Shown piece after piece: positions 21,781 through 35,326 of a stretch of DNA of 40,297 bases (position 1 is its first letter; the number at the start of each line of letters is the position of its first letter). The position numbers were made by a program, and so were the translations under genes. The stretch is from positions 1 to 40,297 of IMG/VR virus record IMGVR_UViG_3300038406_000249. One strand, written 5' to 3'. Origin of the DNA: a virus (Duplodnaviria > Caudoviricetes). The notes under the pieces were generated by a model. The model was not told the origin of the DNA, searched no databases, and worked only from the letters and a program-made list of their open reading frames with translations.

Positions 21781-23112
21781 CTAAGCGATTCGCGCATTGC
21801 TTGGATCCATGACAGTCCGCATGAATTCTCCGAGCTCTGCGGCTCCTTCGCGCAATAGCTCTGAGAAGAGTCCTTCGATTCGGTCGATGTGTTCGGTTCG
21901 TCCATGCAGCCTCCATTTGTCGAGCAGTGTGATCGTCTGCTCTGCTAGCCAATAATCGAGCAGCATTGAGTCTTCGGGGGAGTCGCTCAGTAGCCCGAGT
22001 TCCGAGCCGCACCAAAATATTACGAGCTCTCGAGATAGCGGTGGAGCCGCAACGAGCTGTGATCGCACCGGTGGCAACGTGGAGAGTAGGTCGCGCAGCG
22101 GCACATCGGCCCAGCCGTCGATGTGCACGCCACCCTCTGTGCAGTTATACGTCCGAGCGTCAGAGTGTATGTCCGCCCATCGCGAGAGCCAATCGCGCAC
22201 CGCGATGAACAGCGGCGACGTCAGCACCTCGGCTACTCCTCCCCAGCCCGGCGCCTTGCGTGCATCGAGCTCAGTCGGTAGCGGGTCGGCTCGCCGATGC
22301 TCTGGCAGAGTGCCCCAGTCGAGACGCACGCGCCCGTCGACCTCCTGGGCGCTGCCAGTGCCCGCGTAAACGAGCCCATCAGTCCACGCCAGGTCTTGAC
22401 CTACCAGCACGATCGGGTCGCAACCGAAGCGCCTAGCGAGACTGACGGCCGCGGTGCTACCGGAGCCAGAGGTAGCGAGCCGTGGTACGCCAGTGAGCTG
22501 TTCGATGAGCGCGCCAAGCTCACCATTCCAAACAGGCAAGAGCTGGCCGCCTGAGCACGCCATTAGCGCAGGGTCGCATGTGAGACCGAATGCTCTCTGT
22601 TCCTCGACCAGATGCAGCTTGTGGCGGATATCATTGCTCTCAATGCACAGCGCGATGTGAGCCGGCACCCACTTGGTTGCTGAGTTGACCGCAATCACGA
22701 GGCCGTTCTCACGCACTCGCTCAAGCAGACGATAATTTTTCCCCAGGCTCGGCCCAGCTCCGACGATAAACGCTGGTACCGGCGCCGACATTGCACCTGC
22801 CATCACGCACGGGCACTCCCATAGGTAATGCAGGTTACGCAACAGATGCTCGACCCATGTACGTGACCGAAGCTGGCTGGTCATACGGTTCTGCGCAGAG
22901 CGTTCTGCAAGCTCATCCACCTGGCGCTGCAGTCGGTCACTACCATCGAGCACAAGTACGCCAGTCTCGCGCAGCGTCAGTCTTGACCAATTCGTGTAGT
23001 CGTCATCTGTGAGCTGGTCGCGCCGCAGCACAGTGTGGCTTGGGAAGCGCTGCTTCGCTTCGTTGTAAGCAGCGTCGGAGCCCGCGAGAATCAGTGTGTC
23101 TCTAGGTAGCAA
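21781..23112 (-). CDS. Maf-family (DUF115 / MptE-like) putative nonulosonic-acid protein glycosyltransferase
   Basis: 'AFIVGAGPSLGKN', 'VIAVNSA', 'GCDPIVLVGQDLAW' and 'YNCTEGG' are the conserved blocks of motility-associated-factor proteins. Confidence 0.85.
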   Translation of the reverse strand: MLPRDTLILAGSDAAYNEAKQRFPSHTVLRRDQLTDDDYTNWSRLTLRETGVLVLDGSDRLQRQVDELAERSAQNRMTSQLRSRTWVEHLLRNLHYLWECPCVMAGAMSAPVPAFIVGAGPSLGKNYRLLERVRENGLVIAVNSATKWVPAHIALCIESNDIRHKLHLVEEQRAFGLTCDPALMACSGGQLLPVWNGELGALIEQLTGVPRLATSGSGSTAAVSLARRFGCDPIVLVGQDLAWTDGLVYAGTGSAQEVDGRVRLDWGTLPEHRRADPLPTELDARKAPGWGGVAEVLTSPLFIAVRDWLSRWADIHSDARTYNCTEGGVHIDGWADVPLRDLLSTLPPVRSQLVAAPPLSRELVIFWCGSELGLLSDSPEDSMLLDYWLAEQTITLLDKWRLHGRTEHIDRIEGLFSELLREGAAELGEFMRTVMDPSNARIA

Positions 23113-23635
23113 AGCGCCTCCGAACTTCCTCGAGATCTTCTGGCGTATTTATGTCGACGTAGTCGCCTATCGTTGGAACCTCGAGGCTGTATCTAGACCA
23201 GCATGCCTCTGCCCATTCCGGAAACATATAGATTCCGTTTCGCTTGCCTCCACTCACTGAGACAACGGTACGGTTGCCCCGTAGTTCGTGGTATGCCGCA
23301 TGCATCCTTTCCAGGTCTTCCGTTTGCATTTCAGGCGTGGTGCATTGCAGAACGCAAATGTCATGCGGATACTCAGATATTGAGCCCAATAAATAATGCA
23401 CCACGTCAATGGTTGGCACATCATCGCCGGTCAACACTGCTGGACGCTCAACGGCGAACTCACCGGCCACCACCAGAATCTCTGGATCTTCTGACGACAC
23501 AATCAACCGGTCGAACCTTCGATATTCCAGAGCTAAGCGTATCGCTCGCTCGACCAACGTCACGCCTCCAACGACTTGCATGTTCTTGCGCGGGATACGT
23601 TTCGAGCCGCCGCGTGCGGGTATGATGCATATCAT
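23102..23635 (-). CDS. neuA: Acylneuraminate cytidylyltransferase (CMP-nonulosonate synthetase)
   Basis: 'IIPARGGSKRIPRKN', 'LIVSSED', 'LQCTTP', 'DINTPEDL'. Confidence 0.9.
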   Translation of the reverse strand: MICIIPARGGSKRIPRKNMQVVGGVTLVERAIRLALEYRRFDRLIVSSEDPEILVVAGEFAVERPAVLTGDDVPTIDVVHYLLGSISEYPHDICVLQCTTPEMQTEDLERMHAAYHELRGNRTVVSVSGGKRNGIYMFPEWAEACWSRYSLEVPTIGDYVDINTPEDLEEVRRRFAT

Positions 23636-24639
23636 CAGAGCTGCTCCAATGCGTCGCAGATGCGCAACGCTGCCTTGCCATCGCCGTACTCCGTCGACGC
23701 CTCGCGCTTGGTGCTGCTCGCCTCGCGAAACACTCGAACCAACTCATCTGCCGTGGCATCCGGCGAACAATGATAAGCCCCAAGCAGCGGCCTCCCAACC
23801 TGTCTCCAGCCAATTAGCACACCGGGCACGCCGAGCGCTGATGTCTCTCGCACAATGACGCTTGAGTTGCCGACGATGAGCCTAGCGCTGCGCAGATATG
23901 AGTAGAACAGCTCCGGCGGCATGTTGCGATGCGTGTTGCGGATGCCGAGCTCTCGGATAGTTTCAACGATGTACTCGTTGCCCGGGTCCGCATTCGGCCA
24001 CCAGACGTGCGTCTCGCCAACTCGTGCCGCTGCCTCGAGCACGGCCGTGTAATCCGTCTCGAGGTCCGCCGGGTGCAGCATGACCATCACGATAGACTCA
24101 GGATGCGGCTCAGCCTGCAGCGCGGTGTCTATGCGCGGGCAGCCGGTCAGGTGCACATACCTCGGATTACGCACCCAGCCCCGAAGACTAAACTGCGCGC
24201 TCTCCGTTGCGACGAAGTGGACATCGGCTAACGCCGACACAGCCTCGCGCACATAATCGTCAACGTTGCCACTGCGTTCGCCACCCATTTGATGAACCAT
24301 CGTCTTACCTGCAAGCAGTGCGGAGTACGCGATTGCGAGCACCTCGTAGCGGTCGCCAACGACGTACACGATGTCCTCATCGCCAAGGTCCTGCATCAGG
24401 GCGAGCGCCGACGTTAGCGCCGCGCTGTTGTTGCCAGGGACGAGACCGGAGCCGCGAGTAACGGCCTCCCCGAACTCCGCCTCTATGTCCACTGCAACGT
24501 CGCCGTACATCCGGTCGATCGCGCTGGCGTAGCAGAGCACACGGAACGGGAGGCCCCGCCGCTTCCACTCGCGAATGACCGCGCAGCTGCTGCCCCAGTT
24601 GGCTCTGCTGCCTATCGTGAAAAGAATACTACCCGCCAT
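23635..24639 (-). CDS. neuC: UDP-GlcNAc 2-epimerase (hydrolysing, NeuC/LegG family)
   Basis: 'VGDRYEVLA', 'HQMGGERSGNVDD', 'GCPRID', 'PNADPG', 'IVGNSS', 'IGWRQVGR', 'YGDGKA'. Confidence 0.9.
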   Translation of the reverse strand: MAGSILFTIGSRANWGSSCAVIREWKRRGLPFRVLCYASAIDRMYGDVAVDIEAEFGEAVTRGSGLVPGNNSAALTSALALMQDLGDEDIVYVVGDRYEVLAIAYSALLAGKTMVHQMGGERSGNVDDYVREAVSALADVHFVATESAQFSLRGWVRNPRYVHLTGCPRIDTALQAEPHPESIVMVMLHPADLETDYTAVLEAAARVGETHVWWPNADPGNEYIVETIRELGIRNTHRNMPPELFYSYLRSARLIVGNSSVIVRETSALGVPGVLIGWRQVGRPLLGAYHCSPDATADELVRVFREASSTKREASTEYGDGKAALRICDALEQL

Positions 24640-25456
24640 GTAAAAAGACCTTTCTCGTAGCTAGCATCTGTTCCGAATTCATCAGCTCATCCCGCGTCAC
24701 CGTCGACGCCATCGCTTGCTCAAGCCATCGGATCTCACTCACGAGTTGTTCAAACTCCGCCGGCTCGAGTGAATGCTGCGCATCGCTGCCATACTGATCC
24801 CGACTGAAGCACACGTGCCGTTCGATGGCGCAGGCACCTAGCGCCACTGCTGCGATACTCAGCGCTAAGCCCATCGTGTGGTCCGATAGACCAAGTCGCG
24901 GCCCCACCGTAAAAAACCGCTTGTACATGTCGTTGTACAAAGCGTGCTCAGCACTGCACGGGTACTCGCTCGTGCAGTGCATCTCTATCCAGTCCTCGTT
25001 AATAGGCAGCTTGAGCTCCGCATGTCGCGCCATGCCGGTCGAGTAGTACACAGGTCGCTCGGTAGCAGCCAACGCATCACGCAGCTCTGTATTTGTTAAT
25101 TGACCGCTCGGGAGCTTGTAGGCATCGGGCGGCGCGTGCCTCGCCCATTCGAGCATCTTCACGGCATCGACAGAAAACACGCTCGTGACGAAGTCAACAT
25201 CGTTCCCTTTGCATGCCTTCCAAATCTCTCGCCACTCCGGAGGTGAGAATCCGGTTCGCTCAAAGTACTCCGCTCGGTCCTCAGTCTGGAAGAACCTAGG
25301 CCGCGGCGCATCTGCTGCCACACGCTGCCCGAAGTGACACTGAAACTTGATGGCATCCGCTCCGAGCTCTGCGAACACATCGATCATCCGCAGCGCGTTG
25401 CCTAGCGAGCCGTCGTGCGTGCTGCCGACTTCGGCCATGATGTAGACGTCACTCAT
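24629..25456 (-). CDS. neuB: N-acetylneuraminate / nonulosonate synthase (no C-terminal SAF domain)
   Basis: 'IMAEVGSTHDGS', 'GADAIKFQ', 'YKLPSG', 'STGM', 'HCTSEYP', 'GLSDHT', 'IERH'. Confidence 0.92.
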   Translation of the reverse strand: MSDVYIMAEVGSTHDGSLGNALRMIDVFAELGADAIKFQCHFGQRVAADAPRPRFFQTEDRAEYFERTGFSPPEWREIWKACKGNDVDFVTSVFSVDAVKMLEWARHAPPDAYKLPSGQLTNTELRDALAATERPVYYSTGMARHAELKLPINEDWIEMHCTSEYPCSAEHALYNDMYKRFFTVGPRLGLSDHTMGLALSIAAVALGACAIERHVCFSRDQYGSDAQHSLEPAEFEQLVSEIRWLEQAMASTVTRDELMNSEQMLATRKVFLHGG

Positions 25457-26103
25457 GACGCAAATTCCACGACATCAAACTTCCCGTCGCCTTGCGACCG
25501 ACTTGCGCCGCACCCGTTCTCTTGCGCATGCCGGAGAATCTGCACGATGTCCTTTTCTCCGACGTGCCTGTTCTCGCCAGGGGCTGTTTTGAGCACCCAT
25601 ATCTCAAACTCGAGCACGGGTTTTTCTACGTAGTCCTGCCGCTTGAGTGCCGTCCTTGGGCCCTGCGCGGTCATTACGTGAATTGCTTTCTCTTCGGTGC
25701 CGTGCGGCTCTGTCACGCCAAGCCGGATCTTGTCGGAACCATCGAGCGCTTTCACTTCCATGCCCTCGGCAAGGATCTGCTTACTGCCGATCTTGGTCTT
25801 CGTGATCCGAAGCATCGACGCCGATTGCTTTAGCATCGCTTTGATGTTTCGCGCCGGGACGAACAACCCTTCCGCGTCGCCCGGGAATCCTATCCAGCAT
25901 TTCTCCGCAACCTCGTTCACCACGAGCTCAGCATTATCCTGCGTGAGCTTGACAGTTTGCTCGTCGCTGTAACCTGTCGTCGACTCGACCCAAGCCTTAA
26001 TTAGCTCTTTATTGCGCGGCATGCCGCCGTAAATGCGGTCTCGTAGAGCAATCTTGACTCGATAGACTGCGTAAAGTTCGCGTGGGTTGAAGTCGTGTTT
26101 CAT
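25453..26103 (-). CDS. Cas7/RAMP-like RNA-binding protein (216 aa)
   Basis: ATG 26103 with strong RBS AAGGAG. N-terminal strand plus Gly ('YRVKIALRDRIYGG'), 'LFVPARNIKAMLKQ' (RAMP P-x-x-x-x-KG-like helix) and a C-terminal G-rich loop 'GCGASRSQGDGKFDV' are characteristic of RAMP/Cas7 proteins. Confidence 0.75.
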   Translation of the reverse strand: MKHDFNPRELYAVYRVKIALRDRIYGGMPRNKELIKAWVESTTGYSDEQTVKLTQDNAELVVNEVAEKCWIGFPGDAEGLFVPARNIKAMLKQSASMLRITKTKIGSKQILAEGMEVKALDGSDKIRLGVTEPHGTEEKAIHVMTAQGPRTALKRQDYVEKPVLEFEIWVLKTAPGENRHVGEKDIVQILRHAQENGCGASRSQGDGKFDVVEFAS

Positions 26104-26124
26104 TGTTCTGTTCTCCTTTTGTAG

Positions 26125-26653
26125 GGCTGGGGCGGTACTGGCTTGGTGGGGGTTGTCGCGTTGGGGAAGCGAGGCGTGGAGTGGGAAGGCTCGTCGCATT
26201 GGGAAGGAATGGCGCAGCACGTCGCTGGCGCGGCACGTCGCGTTGGTCAGGAATGGCCCGGGAGGGCTCGGCTCGTCGCGTCGTTGCGGAATGGCGAGGC
26301 TCGTCGCATCGGTCAGGAATGGCGTGGAATGGCATGTCGTATTGGCGTGGAGTGGGAAGGCTCGTCGCATCGGTCAGGCGCGGCTCAAGGCCCGGTTGGG
26401 CACGTCGCATCGGGACGGGTTTGGTTCGGCCTGTCGCGTTGGAGCTGGCCTGGTTCGGCGCGGCATGTCGCCTCGGTGTGGTGTGGTTTGGCTTGTCGCA
26501 CTGGTTGGACTGGGTCCGGGTCGGCCTGTCGCACTGGCAGGGGCGGGATGGCGCGGTGAGGCGTGGACAGTCGCATCGGGACGGGAGGGCGTGGGAAGGT
26601 TCGTCGCGTTGGCTAGGATGGGATCGGATCGTCGCGGAATGGCTTGTCGCACT
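26125..26653 (+). repeat. Non-coding array of 17 units, each (usually 3-nt linker)+(GGNNN)2-6+GTCGC; candidate guide-RNA array
   Basis: GTCGC (one GTCGT) at 26155, 26193, 26221, 26237, 26275, 26303, 26336, 26364, 26404, 26433, 26467, 26495, 26528, 26570, 26603, 26631 and 26646, each preceded by in-phase GG-initiated pentamers. Confidence 0.9.
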
Positions 26654-26660
26654 GTATTGA

Positions 26661-27008
26661 TCACCTATCCGCCTGCCACGCCCAGTAAGTCACGATCGCA
26701 TCTGCAGGCGTCCGAACGACAGCAACACGCACACCGAGGTTTGCCGCACGCTTGTGCCATGCGACTTGCTCTGCGTTGAGCTTACCAGTCGCTGATTTTA
26801 CTTCCATCCAGCCGTAGCCAACGATGTGCAGGTCAGGTGTGCCTGCCTCAGCGAGCTGCATATGCCCACGTCTGACTCGCACCTGACCGCCGCTCTGCAC
26901 TCGTATGACCCAAGCACCTGCGCTCTCGAGCGCTTTGACTATGGTGCGCTGTAGTTCAGACTCGGAGCGTGCAGCGCTGATGGGCCAGCCAACGGCCATC
27001 GTTCTCAC
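26661..27008 (-). CDS. VRR-NUC (PD-(D/E)xK) endonuclease / resolvase
   Basis: 'SESELQRTI', 'AGTPDL', 'WMEVKSATGKLNAEQVAW'. Confidence 0.85.
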   Translation of the reverse strand: MRTMAVGWPISAARSESELQRTIVKALESAGAWVIRVQSGGQVRVRRGHMQLAEAGTPDLHIVGYGWMEVKSATGKLNAEQVAWHKRAANLGVRVAVVRTPADAIVTYWAWQADR

Positions 27009-27526
27009 GCCAACTCCGTCGGCTGCTTGCGCGGTCGACCCTTGCGCTTAGCTTGAGCCTTTTCCGGCTCATCGAAGTCAGTTATCTGAACTGGCCGATT
27101 GCGCTTGCCATTGCTTGGCTTCGGTGTCTTCGCTTTGCCAGCGTCAAGCTCGGCAAGTTTACCGTCAATACTCTTGTCGGTAAACGGCATCTCCTGCTGC
27201 CTCTCCCATGCCTCCATCGGGCGCTCGCTGATGATCTCACGATTATCGAGACGACGCAGGACCACGCTGTTAGTTTCGGGGCAAAACTCTTCTTGCACGT
27301 CAACCTTGCGCTTTTCGGATCGGCTGTTGATTGCGCGGAGCAGGTCACCACGCTCCCGCTCGAGCTGCTTGACGTATCCGGTGTGCTCAGCAACCACGCT
27401 CTTCTTTCGCTCTTTGGTGTAATCTAGCTCATTCTCGACCACGACCAGATTGTCTCGTTTATCGTCGACCTCCGCGTCAGTCAGACTGCAGACGAATTCC
27501 TGTTGTGTGATGTCTCCGTTTGCCAT
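27005..27526 (-). CDS. Hypothetical phage protein
   Basis: 173 aa with RBS AGGAG. Coiled coil followed by 'RRLDNREIISERPM..ERQ' and a basic tail. Confidence 0.7.
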   Translation of the reverse strand: MANGDITQQEFVCSLTDAEVDDKRDNLVVVENELDYTKERKKSVVAEHTGYVKQLERERGDLLRAINSRSEKRKVDVQEEFCPETNSVVLRRLDNREIISERPMEAWERQQEMPFTDKSIDGKLAELDAGKAKTPKPSNGKRNRPVQITDFDEPEKAQAKRKGRPRKQPTELA

Positions 27527-27898
27527 TTATTTGCTCCTGTCCTGAAATCCTGTTTGGCACAGCGGCACCTTAGGCAAGCCGCGTAAGCGTCTACAGGTTT
27601 TGATGATTGTGCGTTTGCTCAAGTCGCATCCGTCATTCGTGTATCTGTGAGCAATCGTCTGGGCCAGGTTCCCGTAGTGTCCATCCAGCGCGCGCCCAAC
27701 GATGTCTCGTAGATTGTTGTACCAGCGCTTTTCTTCCAGTTCCTTTTCTTTGGCTTCTCTCGCCATTCGCGCGTTGAACTCCGGGTCATGCTCATTGCGC
27801 ATAGCGTGCTGATAAAGCTCGAGCAGTAAAGGCTTATAGTCGGCATGTACACTAGCTAGCCTTCGCTTGGCATCGTCATCGAGATCATATTTTTTCAT
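27527..27898 (-). CDS. Hypothetical protein
   Basis: 123 aa directly downstream of the replication initiator. Confidence 0.6.
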   Translation of the reverse strand: MKKYDLDDDAKRRLASVHADYKPLLLELYQHAMRNEHDPEFNARMAREAKEKELEEKRWYNNLRDIVGRALDGHYGNLAQTIAHRYTNDGCDLSKRTIIKTCRRLRGLPKVPLCQTGFQDRSK

Positions 27899-28898
27899 CG
27901 GCTATCGCCTTTCTGAACCGTTCGCCGGCAGCGCTTTGTTTGGCGTTAGCCAGCGCGCGCCGAACCACCTCAGGCGTTAGACTCGACAAGCCCTTACTCT
28001 TGCCGTCAGTCCACCAAGGGTCATTCACGACGTGCCGTATCGCTCGCTCCAGCTGCTCCGGCTCATGACCAGCAGCCAACAGCGATACTACCGCTTGCAC
28101 TCCAGGGTCGCGCGAGTAGGACCCAAGAGTGGCGCCAGTTAGACCAGTAGCAATCGCAAAGGCCTCGGCGACCTGTTTTACCTCCGGCCACTCCTGCGGC
28201 TGCAGGTAGTTCCCGTAATCCCGTCCCTTGGCTTCGGTGTACTTCGCTCGCTCGAAGACCGGCAAACGAAGAGCAGATTCTAGGTCAGTAACCTCAGATT
28301 CTTTCCGACCCCCATTCCCCTCAATTCCTCCACCATCACCGCTGTCTTTATCCCCCACCTGGGCTATTGCGCGCGCGCTACCTGTCAGGTCTTTAGGATC
28401 TGCGGTAGCGGCTTTAGGATCTGATTTTAAGTCTAAGTCTGAGTCTGAGTCTGAGTCTGAGTCTGAGGTGGCATTTCGCTTGACCGTCAATTGACCGTCA
28501 ACTGTCAAGTTTGACGCGTTTGACACGATTGACTGTTGCTTTCGGCGAGCTCTCGATTCCTGCTGTTTTCTGCGGTTATAGGCTGTCTTGTCGGTATGAT
28601 TTTTAATGCCGCTGTAATCATCGTAGCTAACCATCACGTATCTGTAGCCCCCATCGTGAATAAGGCGTCTTCCCCCCTCTTTGGGGTTTCGACTACGCTC
28701 GTCAGGAGCTGTCAAAAATGTCAAAGCGTCATTGACACGTTCGATTGACGTCCCGATGGCCGTGGCTATTACCTGAGGATGTAGCTCAACGACCCCATCT
28801 ACAACGTGGGCAATGGCATACCCCCACACCGCAAAAACGTGCTCTCCAGACCCCACCATCGAGCCGGTGTACATAGACGTGAAGTGTCGTCCATACAT
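27885..28898 (-). CDS. Putative replication initiator (lambda O / DnaT-like architecture)
   Basis: ATG 28898 (TGATG overlap). N-terminal HTH-like region, 'YNRRKQQESRARRK' helix, SD-repeat linker and a C-terminal helical domain. Internal iteron-like repeats. Confidence 0.65.
   Translation of the reverse strand: MYGRHFTSMYTGSMVGSGEHVFAVWGYAIAHVVDGVVELHPQVIATAIGTSIERVNDALTFLTAPDERSRNPKEGGRRLIHDGGYRYVMVSYDDYSGIKNHTDKTAYNRRKQQESRARRKQQSIVSNASNLTVDGQLTVKRNATSDSDSDSDSDLDLKSDPKAATADPKDLTGSARAIAQVGDKDSGDGGGIEGNGGRKESEVTDLESALRLPVFERAKYTEAKGRDYGNYLQPQEWPEVKQVAEAFAIATGLTGATLGSYSRDPGVQAVVSLLAAGHEPEQLERAIRHVVNDPWWTDGKSKGLSSLTPEVVRRALANAKQSAAGERFRKAIADEKI
28437..28467 (+). repeat. (GAGTCT)n microsatellite encoding a Ser-Asp linker
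   Basis: gtct gagtct gagtct gagtct gagtct gag; the protein reads SDSDSDSDSD. Confidence 0.85.
28480..28535. promoter_or_regulatory. Candidate replication origin iterons
   Basis: TTGACCGTCAA twice in tandem (28480, 28491), then TGTCAA and TTGAC half-sites at 28511, 28520 and 28529, inside the initiator gene. Confidence 0.55.
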
Positions 28899-29071
28899 CA
28901 GCGCGCCCTCGCCTCGCTCGAGCACCGAGCTTCGCCGCTACAGCGAACGTCCGTATGCCAGTCCCGAGCGCACCGGAGGTCACAGAAGTCGCCGTCCGTC
29001 TCAGGCTCTCCGCACCACGGGCACCAGTCGATCTCCGGCACTTCAAACACCAGAAGTCCGACCTGAATCAC
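28898..29071 (-). CDS. Small Cys-rich (zinc-binding) hypothetical protein
   Basis: GTG 29071 with GGAGG RBS. CPWC...CDLRC. Confidence 0.5.
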   Translation of the reverse strand: MIQVGLLVFEVPEIDWCPWCGEPETDGDFCDLRCARDWHTDVRCSGEARCSSEARAR

Positions 29072-31594: not shown

Positions 31595-31813
31595 TCATGC
31601 CGCATCGCCCTTGCTGGCACGCGCAGGCTCATCCCACAGGGTCCATCGGATACCGAGTATATCCTCGAGTTTTGCGCGAGTCTTAGAGGCCGGAAGCCGT
31701 CCCTTCAGCCAATTGGTAACGACAGCCTGAGATATGCCTAGCTTCTCGGCCAAACGGCGCTTAGCGCCGCGCTCCGAGAGCCGCTCGGCCAGTATTTGTG
31801 CGCCGCGATTCAT
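31595..31813 (-). CDS. Cro-like HTH repressor
   Basis: 'KRRLAEKLGISQAVVTNWLKG'. Divergent from the cI-like gene. Confidence 0.8.
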   Translation of the reverse strand: MNRGAQILAERLSERGAKRRLAEKLGISQAVVTNWLKGRLPASKTRAKLEDILGIRWTLWDEPARASKGDAA

Positions 31814-31886
31814 GCACTCTAGTAATCACCTAACGACAAGATTGTCAACAGGGCAATCGTTGCAGAACCTTGTCAGGCCGACAAGA
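31814..31886. promoter_or_regulatory. Divergent cro/cI control region with operator GACAA-N2-TTGTC and leftward -35 TTGACA
   Basis: GACAAGATTGTC at 31835-31846. On the minus strand TTGACA (31848-31843)-N16-ATTACT-N7-ATG. Confidence 0.7.
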
Positions 31887-32207
31887 ATGCAAATTATGAA
31901 GCCAAAGCCGGTCCCGTCAGCCATGAAGTCTTTGGGCAAGCGCGTGGAGTATCAGCGCGAACGCGCAGATCTAACCGTGACGGCCCTGGCGGCTCGTGCA
32001 GGGATGACGCCCGGAGCTATCAGCCGAATAGAGGACGGCTCTCGCGTGCCTGGTATTAAGGCGGCCACTGTGCTCAGGCTGGCGAACGCGTTGGGCTGCC
32101 CAGTGGGCTGGTTAATTGCCGACGAAGGTGACCCGGGACCGGTCCCAGTTTTCAGAGAAGCTGGAGACCGACGCAGAAAGTCCAACCGTAGCGAGAGCCC
32201 TGAGTAG
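31887..32207 (+). CDS. CI-like XRE repressor (no S24 peptidase domain)
   Basis: 'LGKRVEYQRERADLTVTALAARAGMTPGAISRIEDG...TVLRLANALGCPVGWL'. Start could be 31887, 31896 or 31923. Confidence 0.85.
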   Translation: MQIMKPKPVPSAMKSLGKRVEYQRERADLTVTALAARAGMTPGAISRIEDGSRVPGIKAATVLRLANALGCPVGWLIADEGDPGPVPVFREAGDRRRKSNRSESPE

Positions 32208-32391
32208 GTAGGGCCTCGAACCTATTACTACGGCCACCACCTCGTGCTCGTCCTCCAGATAGAGGGTGAGCCGCCAGGCCTGCTCGGCGTCATCCCATAC
32301 AATTAGGCCGCAAAATTCGGGCATAAGATCGCAGGCTAGCCCGGCCACTAGACCTGAGGACGACTATTTTCGTTGAGCTATCATTGTCTAC

Positions 32392-32425
32392 TTGACAAGT
32401 TTGTCGCGTTGACAATAATGGCTAC
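32392..32425 (+). promoter_or_regulatory. Rightward early promoter with overlapping operator
   Basis: TTGACA(32392)-N16-AATAAT(32414)-N6-ATG. Operator GACAAGTTTGTC at 32394-32405. Confidence 0.7.
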
Positions 32426-33442: not shown

Positions 33443-33897
33443 ACACCAAAGCATTAAACGGTAAGCAGAACGAGTTAGCGCGCGCCCTTATCGCGGCCGA
33501 CATCGGCGAGGGAAGGCGCTGGCATAATGAATCATCGGCAGCTCGAGCAATGGGGATTGCTGAATCAACGCTGTGGAATTTCATGCACCCCGAGGCTCGT
33601 AAACGGCGCGGACTGCTACCAACGAGTCTTGGCGGGAAGTCGTTGACTGGCCTAATGACGGCAGCTCCGGAGCTCTATTACCAGGTCGTCGGTGTCGCCA
33701 TCACAAATGCACACCTCGACATCGTTCTGGCCGAATCGCTCGACATCATGCGTCGATACGGAGCGAGATGGGTCAGTGAGGTTATGAGTGTTCGTCAAAC
33801 GTGTGTCGGTGGCAAACTCATCCACCCATCAGAGTTGCCAACAGAAGAGCAGTTGGACGCGGTGCACGAGTGTTTATTGGAGGTCATCAATGGCTGA
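33439..33897 (+). CDS. HTH-containing hypothetical protein
   Basis: 'ESSAARAMGIAESTLWNFM' HTH-like pattern. Confidence 0.6.
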   Translation: MNTKALNGKQNELARALIAADIGEGRRWHNESSAARAMGIAESTLWNFMHPEARKRRGLLPTSLGGKSLTGLMTAAPELYYQVVGVAITNAHLDIVLAESLDIMRRYGARWVSEVMSVRQTCVGGKLIHPSELPTEEQLDAVHECLLEVING

Positions 33898-35326
33898 GTT
33901 AATACTAATCGATCTGTCGGGAATTTTCTGGGCTTCGTGGCACGCTACCATCGACCAAGAGGTTAGCGCCGCCTACGAAAATACGCTAGCGACCGTTCGC
34001 CGGCTCGCTCACGGCTACGAGCACGTCGCCGTCTGCATGGATGCGCCGCCATACCTGCGAAAAAAGCTGTGTCCCGAATACAAAGCGCAACGCGATGCAC
34101 CGGCGCCTCAGGCCATTGAGCAATTCAATCGTGTCAAACGCCGGCTCGCTGCAGACGGTTTCCTTCTCTGGTCGGTTGAGGGCTACGAAGCGGACGATGT
34201 GATCGCCACGGCGGTAACGCGCGCGATAGACGACCGGATGCCGGTGACAATTGCCAGCGGAGACAAGGATCTACTGCAGCTCGTGGACGACTCACTAGCC
34301 GTCCAGTTGCTCAAGCCGAGCGACGGCACCGTATTCCGCAACAAGGATGTGAGCGCCAAATTTGGCGTACCTCCATGGCAGATGCGGGACTTACTCGCTC
34401 TCATGGGCGACAGGTCCGACAACATACCAGGCGTGCCTGGCGTCGGACCTAAGACCGCTGCGAAGCTGCTACACGACTTTGATGATATCGATGGGCTGCT
34501 GCGTGAGCTAGAGACTCTACCGGCTGGCAAAGTACGGAGCTCGCTGGTAGAAAATGTCACTCAGCTAACGCTGTCGCGCAAGCTCGTGACGCTACACGAT
34601 AACGTGCCGATAAATTGGGAAGCATTATTTCAGGAGCGCGCACCGGAGAAACTGACGGAGGAAGATATGGGAGATATCGATGAAGCTGACGACATTGGAA
34701 AAACGGAGGAGGCGGCGCCCGCCGAAGTGATCGAGCACACTCTGATTCTGCCGGGTTGCAACGATCCAATACCCGAAGCAAAGCCTGACGCTCTGGCCGT
34801 CCGCGTAAATGTGGGCGGCGCGCAGGTGTTCGAGCAGGGTTTGCAGCCAGGCACATTGGGAGCCGCGTACAAGCTCGCGCGGGGGCTCTATGAGTCGCGG
34901 CTATACTCTCGCTTTCCAAATCCGGAGGCGATCTGGGCTGTCATTATCCGCGGTCGCGAGATGGGTCTTGGTGCCATGACAGCACTGGACTCATTTCACG
35001 TAATCGAGGGTAAACCGGCGCCGCATGCACACCTACTAATCTCTCGCGCAAAACAGCATCCAGACTGCGAGTATTTCGTTTACGTCGGTGGAGACAATAC
35101 CTACGCCGAGTACGAAACGAAACGTCGCAGCAACCCTAAGCCGACTTCGCTAAAGTACACGATCGCGCAAGCCGAAACCGCCGGTATCACAAAGAGTCCA
35201 AAGGGCAGAACAAACTGGGAGAAGCGGCCTGCAGAGATGCTGCGCAAAACCGCGGCCGTGCAACTCGCTCGGATCGAATATCCAGAGGCGCTGCTTGGGG
35301 CTTATGCTGTAGAGGAGCTCGAGTAA
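33890..35326 (+). CDS. Fusion of 5'-3' exonuclease (PolA-N / FEN family) and RecT/Red-beta-like single-strand annealing domain
   Basis: ATG 33890 with GGAGG RBS. Exonuclease motifs 'LIDLS', 'PEYKAQR', 'GYEADDVIAT', 'SGDKDLLQL', 'GDRSDNIPGVPGVGPKTA'. After an acidic linker: 'GREMGLGAMTALDSFHVIEGKP', 'WEKRPAEMLRKTA', 'YPEALLGAYAVEE'. Confidence 0.85.
   Translation: MAELILIDLSGIFWASWHATIDQEVSAAYENTLATVRRLAHGYEHVAVCMDAPPYLRKKLCPEYKAQRDAPAPQAIEQFNRVKRRLAADGFLLWSVEGYEADDVIATAVTRAIDDRMPVTIASGDKDLLQLVDDSLAVQLLKPSDGTVFRNKDVSAKFGVPPWQMRDLLALMGDRSDNIPGVPGVGPKTAAKLLHDFDDIDGLLRELETLPAGKVRSSLVENVTQLTLSRKLVTLHDNVPINWEALFQERAPEKLTEEDMGDIDEADDIGKTEEAAPAEVIEHTLILPGCNDPIPEAKPDALAVRVNVGGAQVFEQGLQPGTLGAAYKLARGLYESRLYSRFPNPEAIWAVIIRGREMGLGAMTALDSFHVIEGKPAPHAHLLISRAKQHPDCEYFVYVGGDNTYAEYETKRRSNPKPTSLKYTIAQAETAGITKSPKGRTNWEKRPAEMLRKTAAVQLARIEYPEALLGAYAVEELE

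What the first reader, a model, noticed from the sequence alone, without database searches (positions are those of the whole stretch)
25453..26653. Lone Cas7/RAMP-like gene plus a pentamer-gridded repeat array: candidate non-CRISPR RNA-guided system
Seen in sequence: a 216-aa ORF with RAMP-type motifs (N-terminal strand plus Gly, 'VPARNIKAMLK', C-terminal G-rich loop 'GCGASRSQGDGKF') sits directly next to about 530 bp of non-coding DNA. This DNA has 17 units, each a run of 2-6 GG-initiated pentamers closed by GTCGC, e.g. gtt GGTCA GGAAT GGCCC GGGAG GGCTC GGCTC GTCGC. No cas1, cas2, cas3, cas5, cas6, cas8 or cas10 is visible in the genome. Established: Cas7 proteins polymerise along guide RNA with a fixed nucleotide step. 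Inference: the constant GG of each pentamer could be the protein-binding register, the variable positions a discontinuous targeting code, and GTCGC a processing or boundary signal. As I recall it, this resembles the recently described phage VIPR (GGY/NN) systems (recollection, not checked here). This locus differs in having a free third position (GGA/GGG common) and a GTCGC punctuation mark. Possible role: silencing competing phages/elements or decoying host type I/III CRISPR.
Basis: partly seen in the sequence, partly recalled or inferred. Interest (0 to 1): 0.95.

Follow-up and report, generated by a model that had tools for sequence, protein, structure and literature searches.

The report
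C-rich, GAC-punctuated VIPR-like phage system
This temperate phage carries a lone Cas7-like gene beside 17 short five-base-step repeat units that likely act as guide RNAs, as in the VIPR gene-silencing systems described in 2026, but across its large protein family the fixed letters read CC on the gene's own strand with a GAC mark between units, so it is likely a mirror-image variant of that system.

Summary
The gene (25453-26103, minus strand) and the array (26120-26650) are real. The protein folds as a RAMP (best match Cas7, Z 12.3) and is a distant homologue of SUSP1 Vipr (HHalign 96%), so this works like a VIPR system, a kind published in 2026. A free third base (NNNGG) is already in that paper. 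On the gene's strand each unit reads: 8-nt linker ending GAC, then (NNNCC)n. That orientation holds in 61 of 91 family loci (GG in 2, none in 28), upstream or downstream of the gene. SUSP1-like Vipr loci show the reverse (GG in 30 of 31). Arrays sit inside operons between a stop codon and a ribosome-binding site, and two guanine-reading Vipr residues are lost. The RNA is therefore likely C-rich and cut from the mRNA. The variable triplets keep a codon-like phase along a unit, a lead for a 3-nt target step (z about 3). No target was identified, no RNA data were available, and figures of the VIPR paper that I could not see may already show this clade. Verdict: new variant of a known kind.

The parts
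25453..26103 (-). Stand-alone RAMP gene (216 aa), distant Vipr homologue: RRM core, helical insertion after strand 1, thumb hairpin, G-loop
   Evidence: pLDDT 87.7; Z 12.3, rmsd 4.7, 166 residues to type VII Cas7; HHalign 96.1%, E 2.8e-9 to the SUSP1-like Vipr profile
26113..26117 (-). Ribosome-binding site AGGAG of the RAMP gene; the last array unit runs into it
   Evidence: sequence; same layout in L005, L006, L007
26120..26650 (-). Array of 17 units; on the gene's strand: linker (modal 8 nt) ending GCGAC, then 2-7 NNNCC pentamers. Predicted guide array
   Evidence: strand inferred
26661..27008 (-). Upstream neighbour, VRR-NUC-like gene; its stop lies 10 nt before the first GCGAC. Context only, not a conserved partner
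   Evidence: (PF08774, E 6e-4, below the curated cut-off)
24629..25456 (-). Downstream neighbour, NeuB-family gene whose start overlaps the RAMP stop (ATGA). Context only; shows the cassette lies inside an operon
   Evidence: PF03102, E 8e-49

Best explanation
This is a two-part phage cassette, a RAMP gene and a five-base-step array, that likely works like VIPR but with a C-rich guide: the array is likely transcribed with the operon, likely cut at or near each GAC into short RNAs, and the protein is predicted to polymerise one subunit per NNNCC, holding the CC and presenting the variable bases, which would bind a DNA target in about 3-nt steps and would silence genes of rival phages or elements. 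Shown: fold, homology, array grammar, orientation, hypervariability. Inferred: strand, cutting, filament, DNA target, 3-nt step, silencing. About 0.85 that it is a VIPR-like guide system, about 0.75 that the C strand is the RNA.
For: Fold: Cas7/Csm3 are the top matches; same order of elements as modelled Vipr, with the helical insertion after strand 1; the same six top viral structures for both models; profile match to Vipr. Coupling: C-on-gene-strand arrays in 61 of 91 clusters (22 upstream, 28 downstream, 11 both), G in 2, none in 28; control Vipr loci G in 30 of 31, and the SUSP1 vrRNAs are G-rich on the vipr strand. Array-first scan: 34 of 49 places have the gene within 3 kb, 32 on the C strand; the 2 exceptions also carry a co-oriented array beside the gene, and their second array follows genes on the other strand. 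Of 101 arrays, 46 are followed by a ribosome-binding site and start on the C strand against 10 on the G strand, and 66 against 32 follow a long ORF's stop. In 7 of 38 downstream arrays the gene's TGA is the first TGAC. Vipr's G-reading D177 and W178 (bioRxiv 720927) become A/S in 102 of 106 and mostly D/N/S; R179 is kept in 103 of 106. All three N are free, against 89% pyrimidine after GG in Vipr; guide triplets are no more alike within a locus than between loci (0.27, 0.26) while linker triplets are (0.49, 0.26). The C strand folds less than shuffles (z +2.3). 3-nt step: z 2.8-3.3 in 905 units, steps 4 and 5 negative, z about 2 in each half of the loci, true base mapping first of 24.
Against: No target found: no excess in 2.6 Mb of loci, in six whole contigs, or for contiguous and NNN+1 rules in 5.3 Mb with a within-locus null; three exact patterns gave 0 hits in viral contigs. 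Units are short (4-5 pentamers in 396 of 606) against 9-16 repeats in vrRNAs, which limits specificity. Strong hairpins do not tell the strands apart (6 after, 5 before, of 101), and SUSP1 has inverted repeats 5' of its vrRNAs. The stricter fixed base is the second C in 53 of 61 loci, which is the first G on the other strand, and the first G is also slightly stricter in Vipr (17 against 10 loci): this leans, weakly, to the G strand. TA is depleted inside triplets (39/58.9 and 36/49.3 observed/expected) but hardly across the CC (59/65.5), which does not favour a plain contiguous copy. The Vipr control for the phase test was too small to validate it (17 guides). The operon counts partly repeat the co-orientation count. 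No nuclease for cutting at GAC is identified.
Confidence: 0.6

Rival explanations
1. An ordinary VIPR of the already listed NNNGG, staggered-array kind: the G-rich strand is made from an antisense promoter and GTCG is a minimal 3' tail.
For: The VIPR paper lists NNNGG repeats and staggered arrays; constant part 3' of the repeats fits the vrRNA layout on the G strand; first G stricter in both families; the family is within profile reach of Vipr, so it may be among the paper's 667 systems.
Against: Needs an antisense promoter inside a neighbouring gene on whichever side the array lies; none found by consensus scan near the array (a weak test); orientation is the reverse of 30 of 31 Vipr controls and follows the local operon; G-reading residues lost.
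Confidence: 0.2
2. Same C-rich RNP, but the target is RNA: the filament binds rival or host mRNA and blocks translation.
For: Top structural matches are the RNA-targeting type VII and III backbones; G-loop matches Csm4 models weakly in 119 of 120 members (G-loop only).
Against: Both sense-like and antisense-like codon classes carry phase signal, which fits double-stranded DNA better; the helical insertion that holds the skipped DNA base in Vipr appears present.
Confidence: 0.08
3. A decoy against host type III or I CRISPR: linker-bearing RNAs mimic crRNA tags and, with the RAMP, soak up Cas subunits.
For: The linker is 8 nt in 222 of 314 cases, the length of a class 1 crRNA 5' tag (own knowledge); in close relatives it reads A-A-Y-GCGAC, like the end of the Thermus thermophilus type III repeat, ATTGCGAC (PMC10989782 Table 1).
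Against: Only GAC is kept family-wide; a decoy needs neither a 5-nt CC register nor hundreds of unique, codon-phased triplets.
Confidence: 0.07
4. No guide: the array is a cis binding tract on the phage's own mRNA or DNA, coated by the RAMP for autoregulation, and the N positions drift freely.
For: Array abuts the gene's ribosome-binding site; no targets found.
Against: Arrays also lie downstream or far from the gene; they turn over almost completely between phages whose proteins are 93-99% identical; codon-like phase in the variable bases.
Confidence: 0.05

Closest known systems
Type II VIPR of Escherichia phage SUSP1 and the P. fulva prophage (bioRxiv 10.64898/2026.04.26.720920 and .720927)
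   Same: Viral stand-alone minimal RAMP, homologous by profile and fold; 5-nt-step arrays flanking the gene on either side; no cas genes; G-loop arginine kept.
   Different: Gene-strand repeat is NNNCC, not YNNGG; three free bases; units mostly 4-7 pentamers, not 9-16; units joined by an 8-nt GAC linker with no structured tail or gap; D177 and W178 lost; no conserved vap gene in the near clade.
VIPR variants with NNNGG/YNNNG/NNNNG repeats and staggered arrays (same paper, methods and figs S17-S18, figures not visible)
   Same: Free third base and back-to-back units with a register shift; read on the antisense strand this array is NNNGG.
   Different: The text seen names no C-rich guide, no GAC mark and no orientation; its stagger is 1 nt, here the commonest unit length is 5n+3 (232 of 403 spacings, 5n+4 in 71). 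This clade may be what those figures show.
Non-canonical VIPR-like clusters (GAC/NN, CAC/NN, WGT/NN, TGH/NN) of bioRxiv 10.64898/2026.10.21.760802
   Same: Vipr-like fold beside 5-nt arrays whose fixed letters are not GGY.
   Different: There the motif repeats about 10 times with a fixed triplet; here the fixed part is CC and GAC only separates units. The full list of 21 clusters is in a figure I could not see.
Class 1 CRISPR backbone RAMPs (type VII Cas7, type III-A Csm3) and their crRNAs
   Same: Fold (Z 11-12); CRISPR-like G-loop; an array of linker-plus-variable units that would need cutting.
   Different: No cas operon, no repeat-spacer array, 5-nt rather than 6-nt step, specificity interrupted by fixed bases.

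Membership tests
VIPR | Minimal RAMP with RRM core, thumb and G-loop | tested here: met
VIPR | Homology to Vipr proteins | tested here: met
   HHalign 96.1%, E 2.8e-9, 137 columns; narrower profile gave 23%, E 9e-4; shared top six viral structures. Whether it lies inside the paper's Vipr clade was not tested.
VIPR | Viral, stand-alone, no CRISPR array or other cas genes | tested here: met
   virus record with terminase, portal, integrase; no Cas hit in 45 ORFs
VIPR | Adjacent non-coding 5-nt-periodic array with hypervariable positions, kept across homologues | tested here: met
VIPR | GGY/NN repeat on the gene's strand, as in SUSP1 | tested here: not met
   NNNCC on the gene's strand in 61 of 91, GG in 2; no pyrimidine bias. 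On the antisense strand it fits the paper's looser NNNGG.
VIPR (type II) | 9-16 repeats followed by a structured 3' tail | tested here: not met
   516 of 606 units have 4-7 pentamers; 8-nt linker only; no Rfam match
VIPR (type II) | Guanine-reading G-loop residues D177, W178 | tested here: not met
   H17 falls on a glycine by hand alignment only
VIPR | Accessory vap gene (typical, not universal) | tested here: not met
   no shared neighbour in the near clade; a conserved upstream gene in 11 of 91 loci, all distant members at 25-33% identity
VIPR | NN plus 1-nt skip target rule (3 nt per repeat) | tested here: inconclusive
   3-nt phase signal z about 3; no target; wobble positions are not confined to one skipped base
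VIPR | Array is expressed, bound by the protein, and silences DNA | not testable with these tools
   needs RNA-seq, pull-down and reporter assays
Class 1 CRISPR-Cas | cas operon (Cas5/6/8/10, Cas1/2) and a repeat-spacer array | tested here: not met

The most novel reading that the evidence does not exclude
A large separate branch of phage RNA-guided RAMPs (882 clusters at 50% identity at E 1e-10) uses a mirror-image C scaffold and a third free base, and makes many short guides from a promoter-less, hairpin-less polycistronic array cut at a GAC-ended 8-nt linker, possibly by the RAMP itself. It would be orthogonal to GGY VIPR, read its target three bases per subunit, and in layout (5' tag plus guide, CRISPR-like G-loop) stand between VIPR and class 1 crRNA processing.
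Probability: 0.3. Interest if true: 0.8.

Novelty: new variant of a known kind. Interest (0 to 1): 0.55.

Why it matters
If the C strand is the guide, anyone annotating these loci by the VIPR GG rule reads them backwards, and a second, non-cross-reacting scaffold for a 24-kDa programmable binder becomes available. A self-contained 'linker plus guide' array inside an mRNA would also make testable how the cutting of arrays into tagged guides arose on the path from viral RAMPs to class 1 CRISPR. If the G strand is the guide, it is one more VIPR locus.

Tried and rejected
No RNA holder was listed for window 24600-27600; this says nothing on expression. Coding explanation for the array: ORFs cross it in several frames, but unit lengths of 5n+3 shift frame at every unit and relatives share no such protein; rejected. 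Target searches: 328 guides of 5 or more pentamers against 2.6 Mb, 12 rules, no excess except self-matches; 55 guides against six contigs, 8 rules, none; three exact patterns from two window units against viral contigs, 0 hits. An apparent excess of contiguous 15-nt hits (19 against 8.4 +/- 2.5) vanished with a within-locus null (39 against 34.4 +/- 5.6). The N2N3-plus-1-skip rule gave 49 against 37.4 +/- 3.8 at the loosest score and 10 against 6.9 +/- 2.8 at the next (12 shuffles); no single hit is convincing. One 18/18 hit under NNN+1 and one 18/20 hit under N2N3+1 are within rough chance. Dinucleotide-lag test was uninformative and failed to recover the known rule in the Vipr control. Slippage as the source of the phase signal: adjacent triplets are no more alike than shuffles (0.274, 0.272). 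Sequence searches of PDB found nothing at E below 0.03; Pfam and PHROGs miss P0001; Atlas neighbours are unnamed viral clusters. The wide structural search was not run. No complex prediction was sent. Host not identified. Paper searches showed four VIPR preprints and, in the text I saw, no C-strand or GAC-punctuated form; figures, tables S1-S3 and data files were not visible and may show it.

Full report
Observation. The window is a 40,297-base virus record with integrase, terminase, SU10-type portal and a major head protein. The 216-aa ORF lies on the minus strand at 25453-26103, inside a run of minus-strand genes: a VRR-NUC-like gene ends 10 nt before the array, the array runs into the RAMP gene's ribosome-binding site, and the RAMP stop overlaps the start of a NeuB gene. 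The array has 17 pentamer-bearing units and one bare duplication. GG pairs at 5 nt number 55 against 17.7 +/- 3.7 in 1000 shuffles, and the mark 18 against 4.5 +/- 1.9; nothing like it occurs elsewhere in the window. No Cas family was found in the 45 ORFs scanned.

The protein. AlphaFold2 on a 120-sequence alignment gave pLDDT 87.7. The best solved matches are type VII Cas7 and type III-A Csm3 (Foldseek E 2.5e-7; Z 12.3, rmsd 4.7, 166 residues). The family is large: 232 proteins in the word search; 1,517 clusters at 50% identity at E 0.001 and 882 at 1e-10 (marginal hits may be other RAMPs). I took the SUSP1 gene at 28474-29061 of KT454805 as vipr; its residues H17, K33, R138, D177, W178 and R179 match the numbering in bioRxiv 720927. 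A profile of 106 SUSP1-like Vipr proteins matches a diverse profile of this family at 96.1%, E 2.8e-9. Both models have the same order of elements and the same six top viral structures. The G-loop differs: Vipr's D177 (94 of 106) and aromatic 178 (105 of 106), which read the two guanines, are A/S (102 of 106) and mostly D/N/S here, while the arginine is kept (103 of 106).

The array across the family. On the gene's strand the grammar is linker-GAC-(NNNCC)n. In 606 units from 59 loci all three N are near-free, against 89% pyrimidine after GG in Vipr controls; 516 units have 4-7 pentamers. The linker is 8 nt in 222 of 314 cases; its first three bases are locus-specific, whereas guide triplets are no more alike within a locus than between loci. 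Phages with 93-99% identical proteins share almost no units. This is how guides behave.

Which strand. Of 120 loci in 91 clusters, 61 have the C form on the gene's strand, 2 a marginal G signal, and 28 nothing above threshold (15 of these have a short flank; L009 has units below threshold). SUSP1-like loci show G on the gene's strand in 30 of 31, as SUSP1 itself does. Starting from the array pattern, 55 stretches fall in 49 places; 34 have the gene within 3 kb, 32 on the C strand, and 15 have none nearby. Three records among those 15 hold the gene farther away. Both 'opposite' cases have a co-oriented array next to the gene and a second array that follows genes on the other strand. Of 101 arrays, 46 lead into a ribosome-binding site on the C strand against 10 on the G strand; two end in a hairpin and T run on the C strand; hairpins overall do not discriminate, 6 against 5. 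In 7 of 38 downstream arrays the stop codon is the first TGAC. Against this, the stricter fixed base corresponds to the first G in both families, and no RNA data could be examined. I put 0.75 on the C strand.

The code. No target was identified. An indirect test asked whether triplets keep one codon phase along a unit, as they would if each pentamer advanced three bases (or a multiple of three) over coding DNA. In 905 non-redundant units (961 before removing near-duplicates), step 3 scored z 2.8-3.3 (1-2 of 500 within-locus shuffles as high), and steps 4 and 5 were negative. Each half of the loci gave about 2. The true base mapping ranked first of 24 and the top eight all keep the GC/AT split; adjacent triplets are not unusually alike. 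N2N3 carry more signal (3.8) than N1N2 (2.1), and classes with a wobble base inside the pair score highest, so the wobble base is not confined to one skipped position. TA depletion does not extend across the CC. Several rules were tried and the Vipr control was too small, so this is a lead. It agrees with Vipr's three DNA bases per subunit and does not say whether two or three pair.

Mechanism. Shown: fold, homology, grammar, orientation, variability. Inferred from VIPR: one subunit per pentamer, fixed bases buried, variable bases presented, binding without cleavage, repression of rival elements. Inferred here: a C-rich RNA released from the operon transcript at the GAC linker, by the RAMP or a host nuclease. 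With 8-21 informative bases per unit, short units would be promiscuous unless several act together. Confidence 0.6; G-strand VIPR 0.2; RNA target 0.08; CRISPR decoy 0.07; cis tract 0.05. The linker's 8-nt length and its likeness in close relatives to the T. thermophilus type III repeat end are suggestive only, since GAC alone is kept family-wide.

What is known. bioRxiv .720927 (first sixth and passages) gives the contacts. bioRxiv 2026.10.15.759431 (first eighth and passages) gives the biology. bioRxiv 2026.10.21.760802 (outline, passages, section 4.22) reports 21 non-canonical clusters, naming four motifs. PMC10989782: one passage. In what I saw and in searches, a C-strand, GAC-punctuated form is not described; the unseen figures may show this clade, possibly drawn on the G strand. 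Earlier agents in this scan noted what seems the same kind, which is not independent support.

Verdict. It works like VIPR and is homologous to it, but fails the type II marks (motif, strand, tail, G-reading residues, vap). New variant of a known kind; interest 0.55.

Noticed in passing
window 21781-25456 (-): NeuB, UDP-GlcNAc 2-epimerase, cytidylyltransferase and MptE-like genes lie directly after the RAMP gene: a nonulosonic-acid-type sugar pathway in a 40-kb temperate phage, kept in L005-L007.
   Followed up: no
window 33788-35326 (+): 512-aa ORF (mechanical start) joining a 5'-3' exonuclease and a RecT-like domain.
   Followed up: no
window 31870-32419: Consensus promoter-like sites on both strands around an HTH repressor-like gene (31734-32207): likely the lysis-lysogeny control region.
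   Followed up: no
L025-L039 and L090, upstream of the RAMP gene: A distant subclade (11 of 91 loci, 25-33% identity) keeps a conserved upstream gene of about 180-350 aa, a candidate vap.
   Followed up: partly
L233, L266, L247, L269: Second or remote arrays away from the RAMP gene, on either strand; in L266 both arrays end in long perfect hairpins at their C-strand 3' ends.
   Followed up: partly
L125 (Microcystis phage Mae-JY09, PP395641.1:37713-38459): The only cultured-phage record with a family member among 50,697 (31% identity); its array starts at the stop codon. A possible source for bench work; the DNA looks very GC-rich for the stated host.
   Followed up: partly
L179 1500-3000: A SUSP1-like Vipr locus with two GG arrays facing in opposite directions, units separated by stem-loop-like inserts; possibly the ribozyme-spaced type.
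   Followed up: no
L016, L072, L102: Other linker spellings (CATAATTGAC, GCAGAC) with the same NNNCC body.
   Followed up: partly
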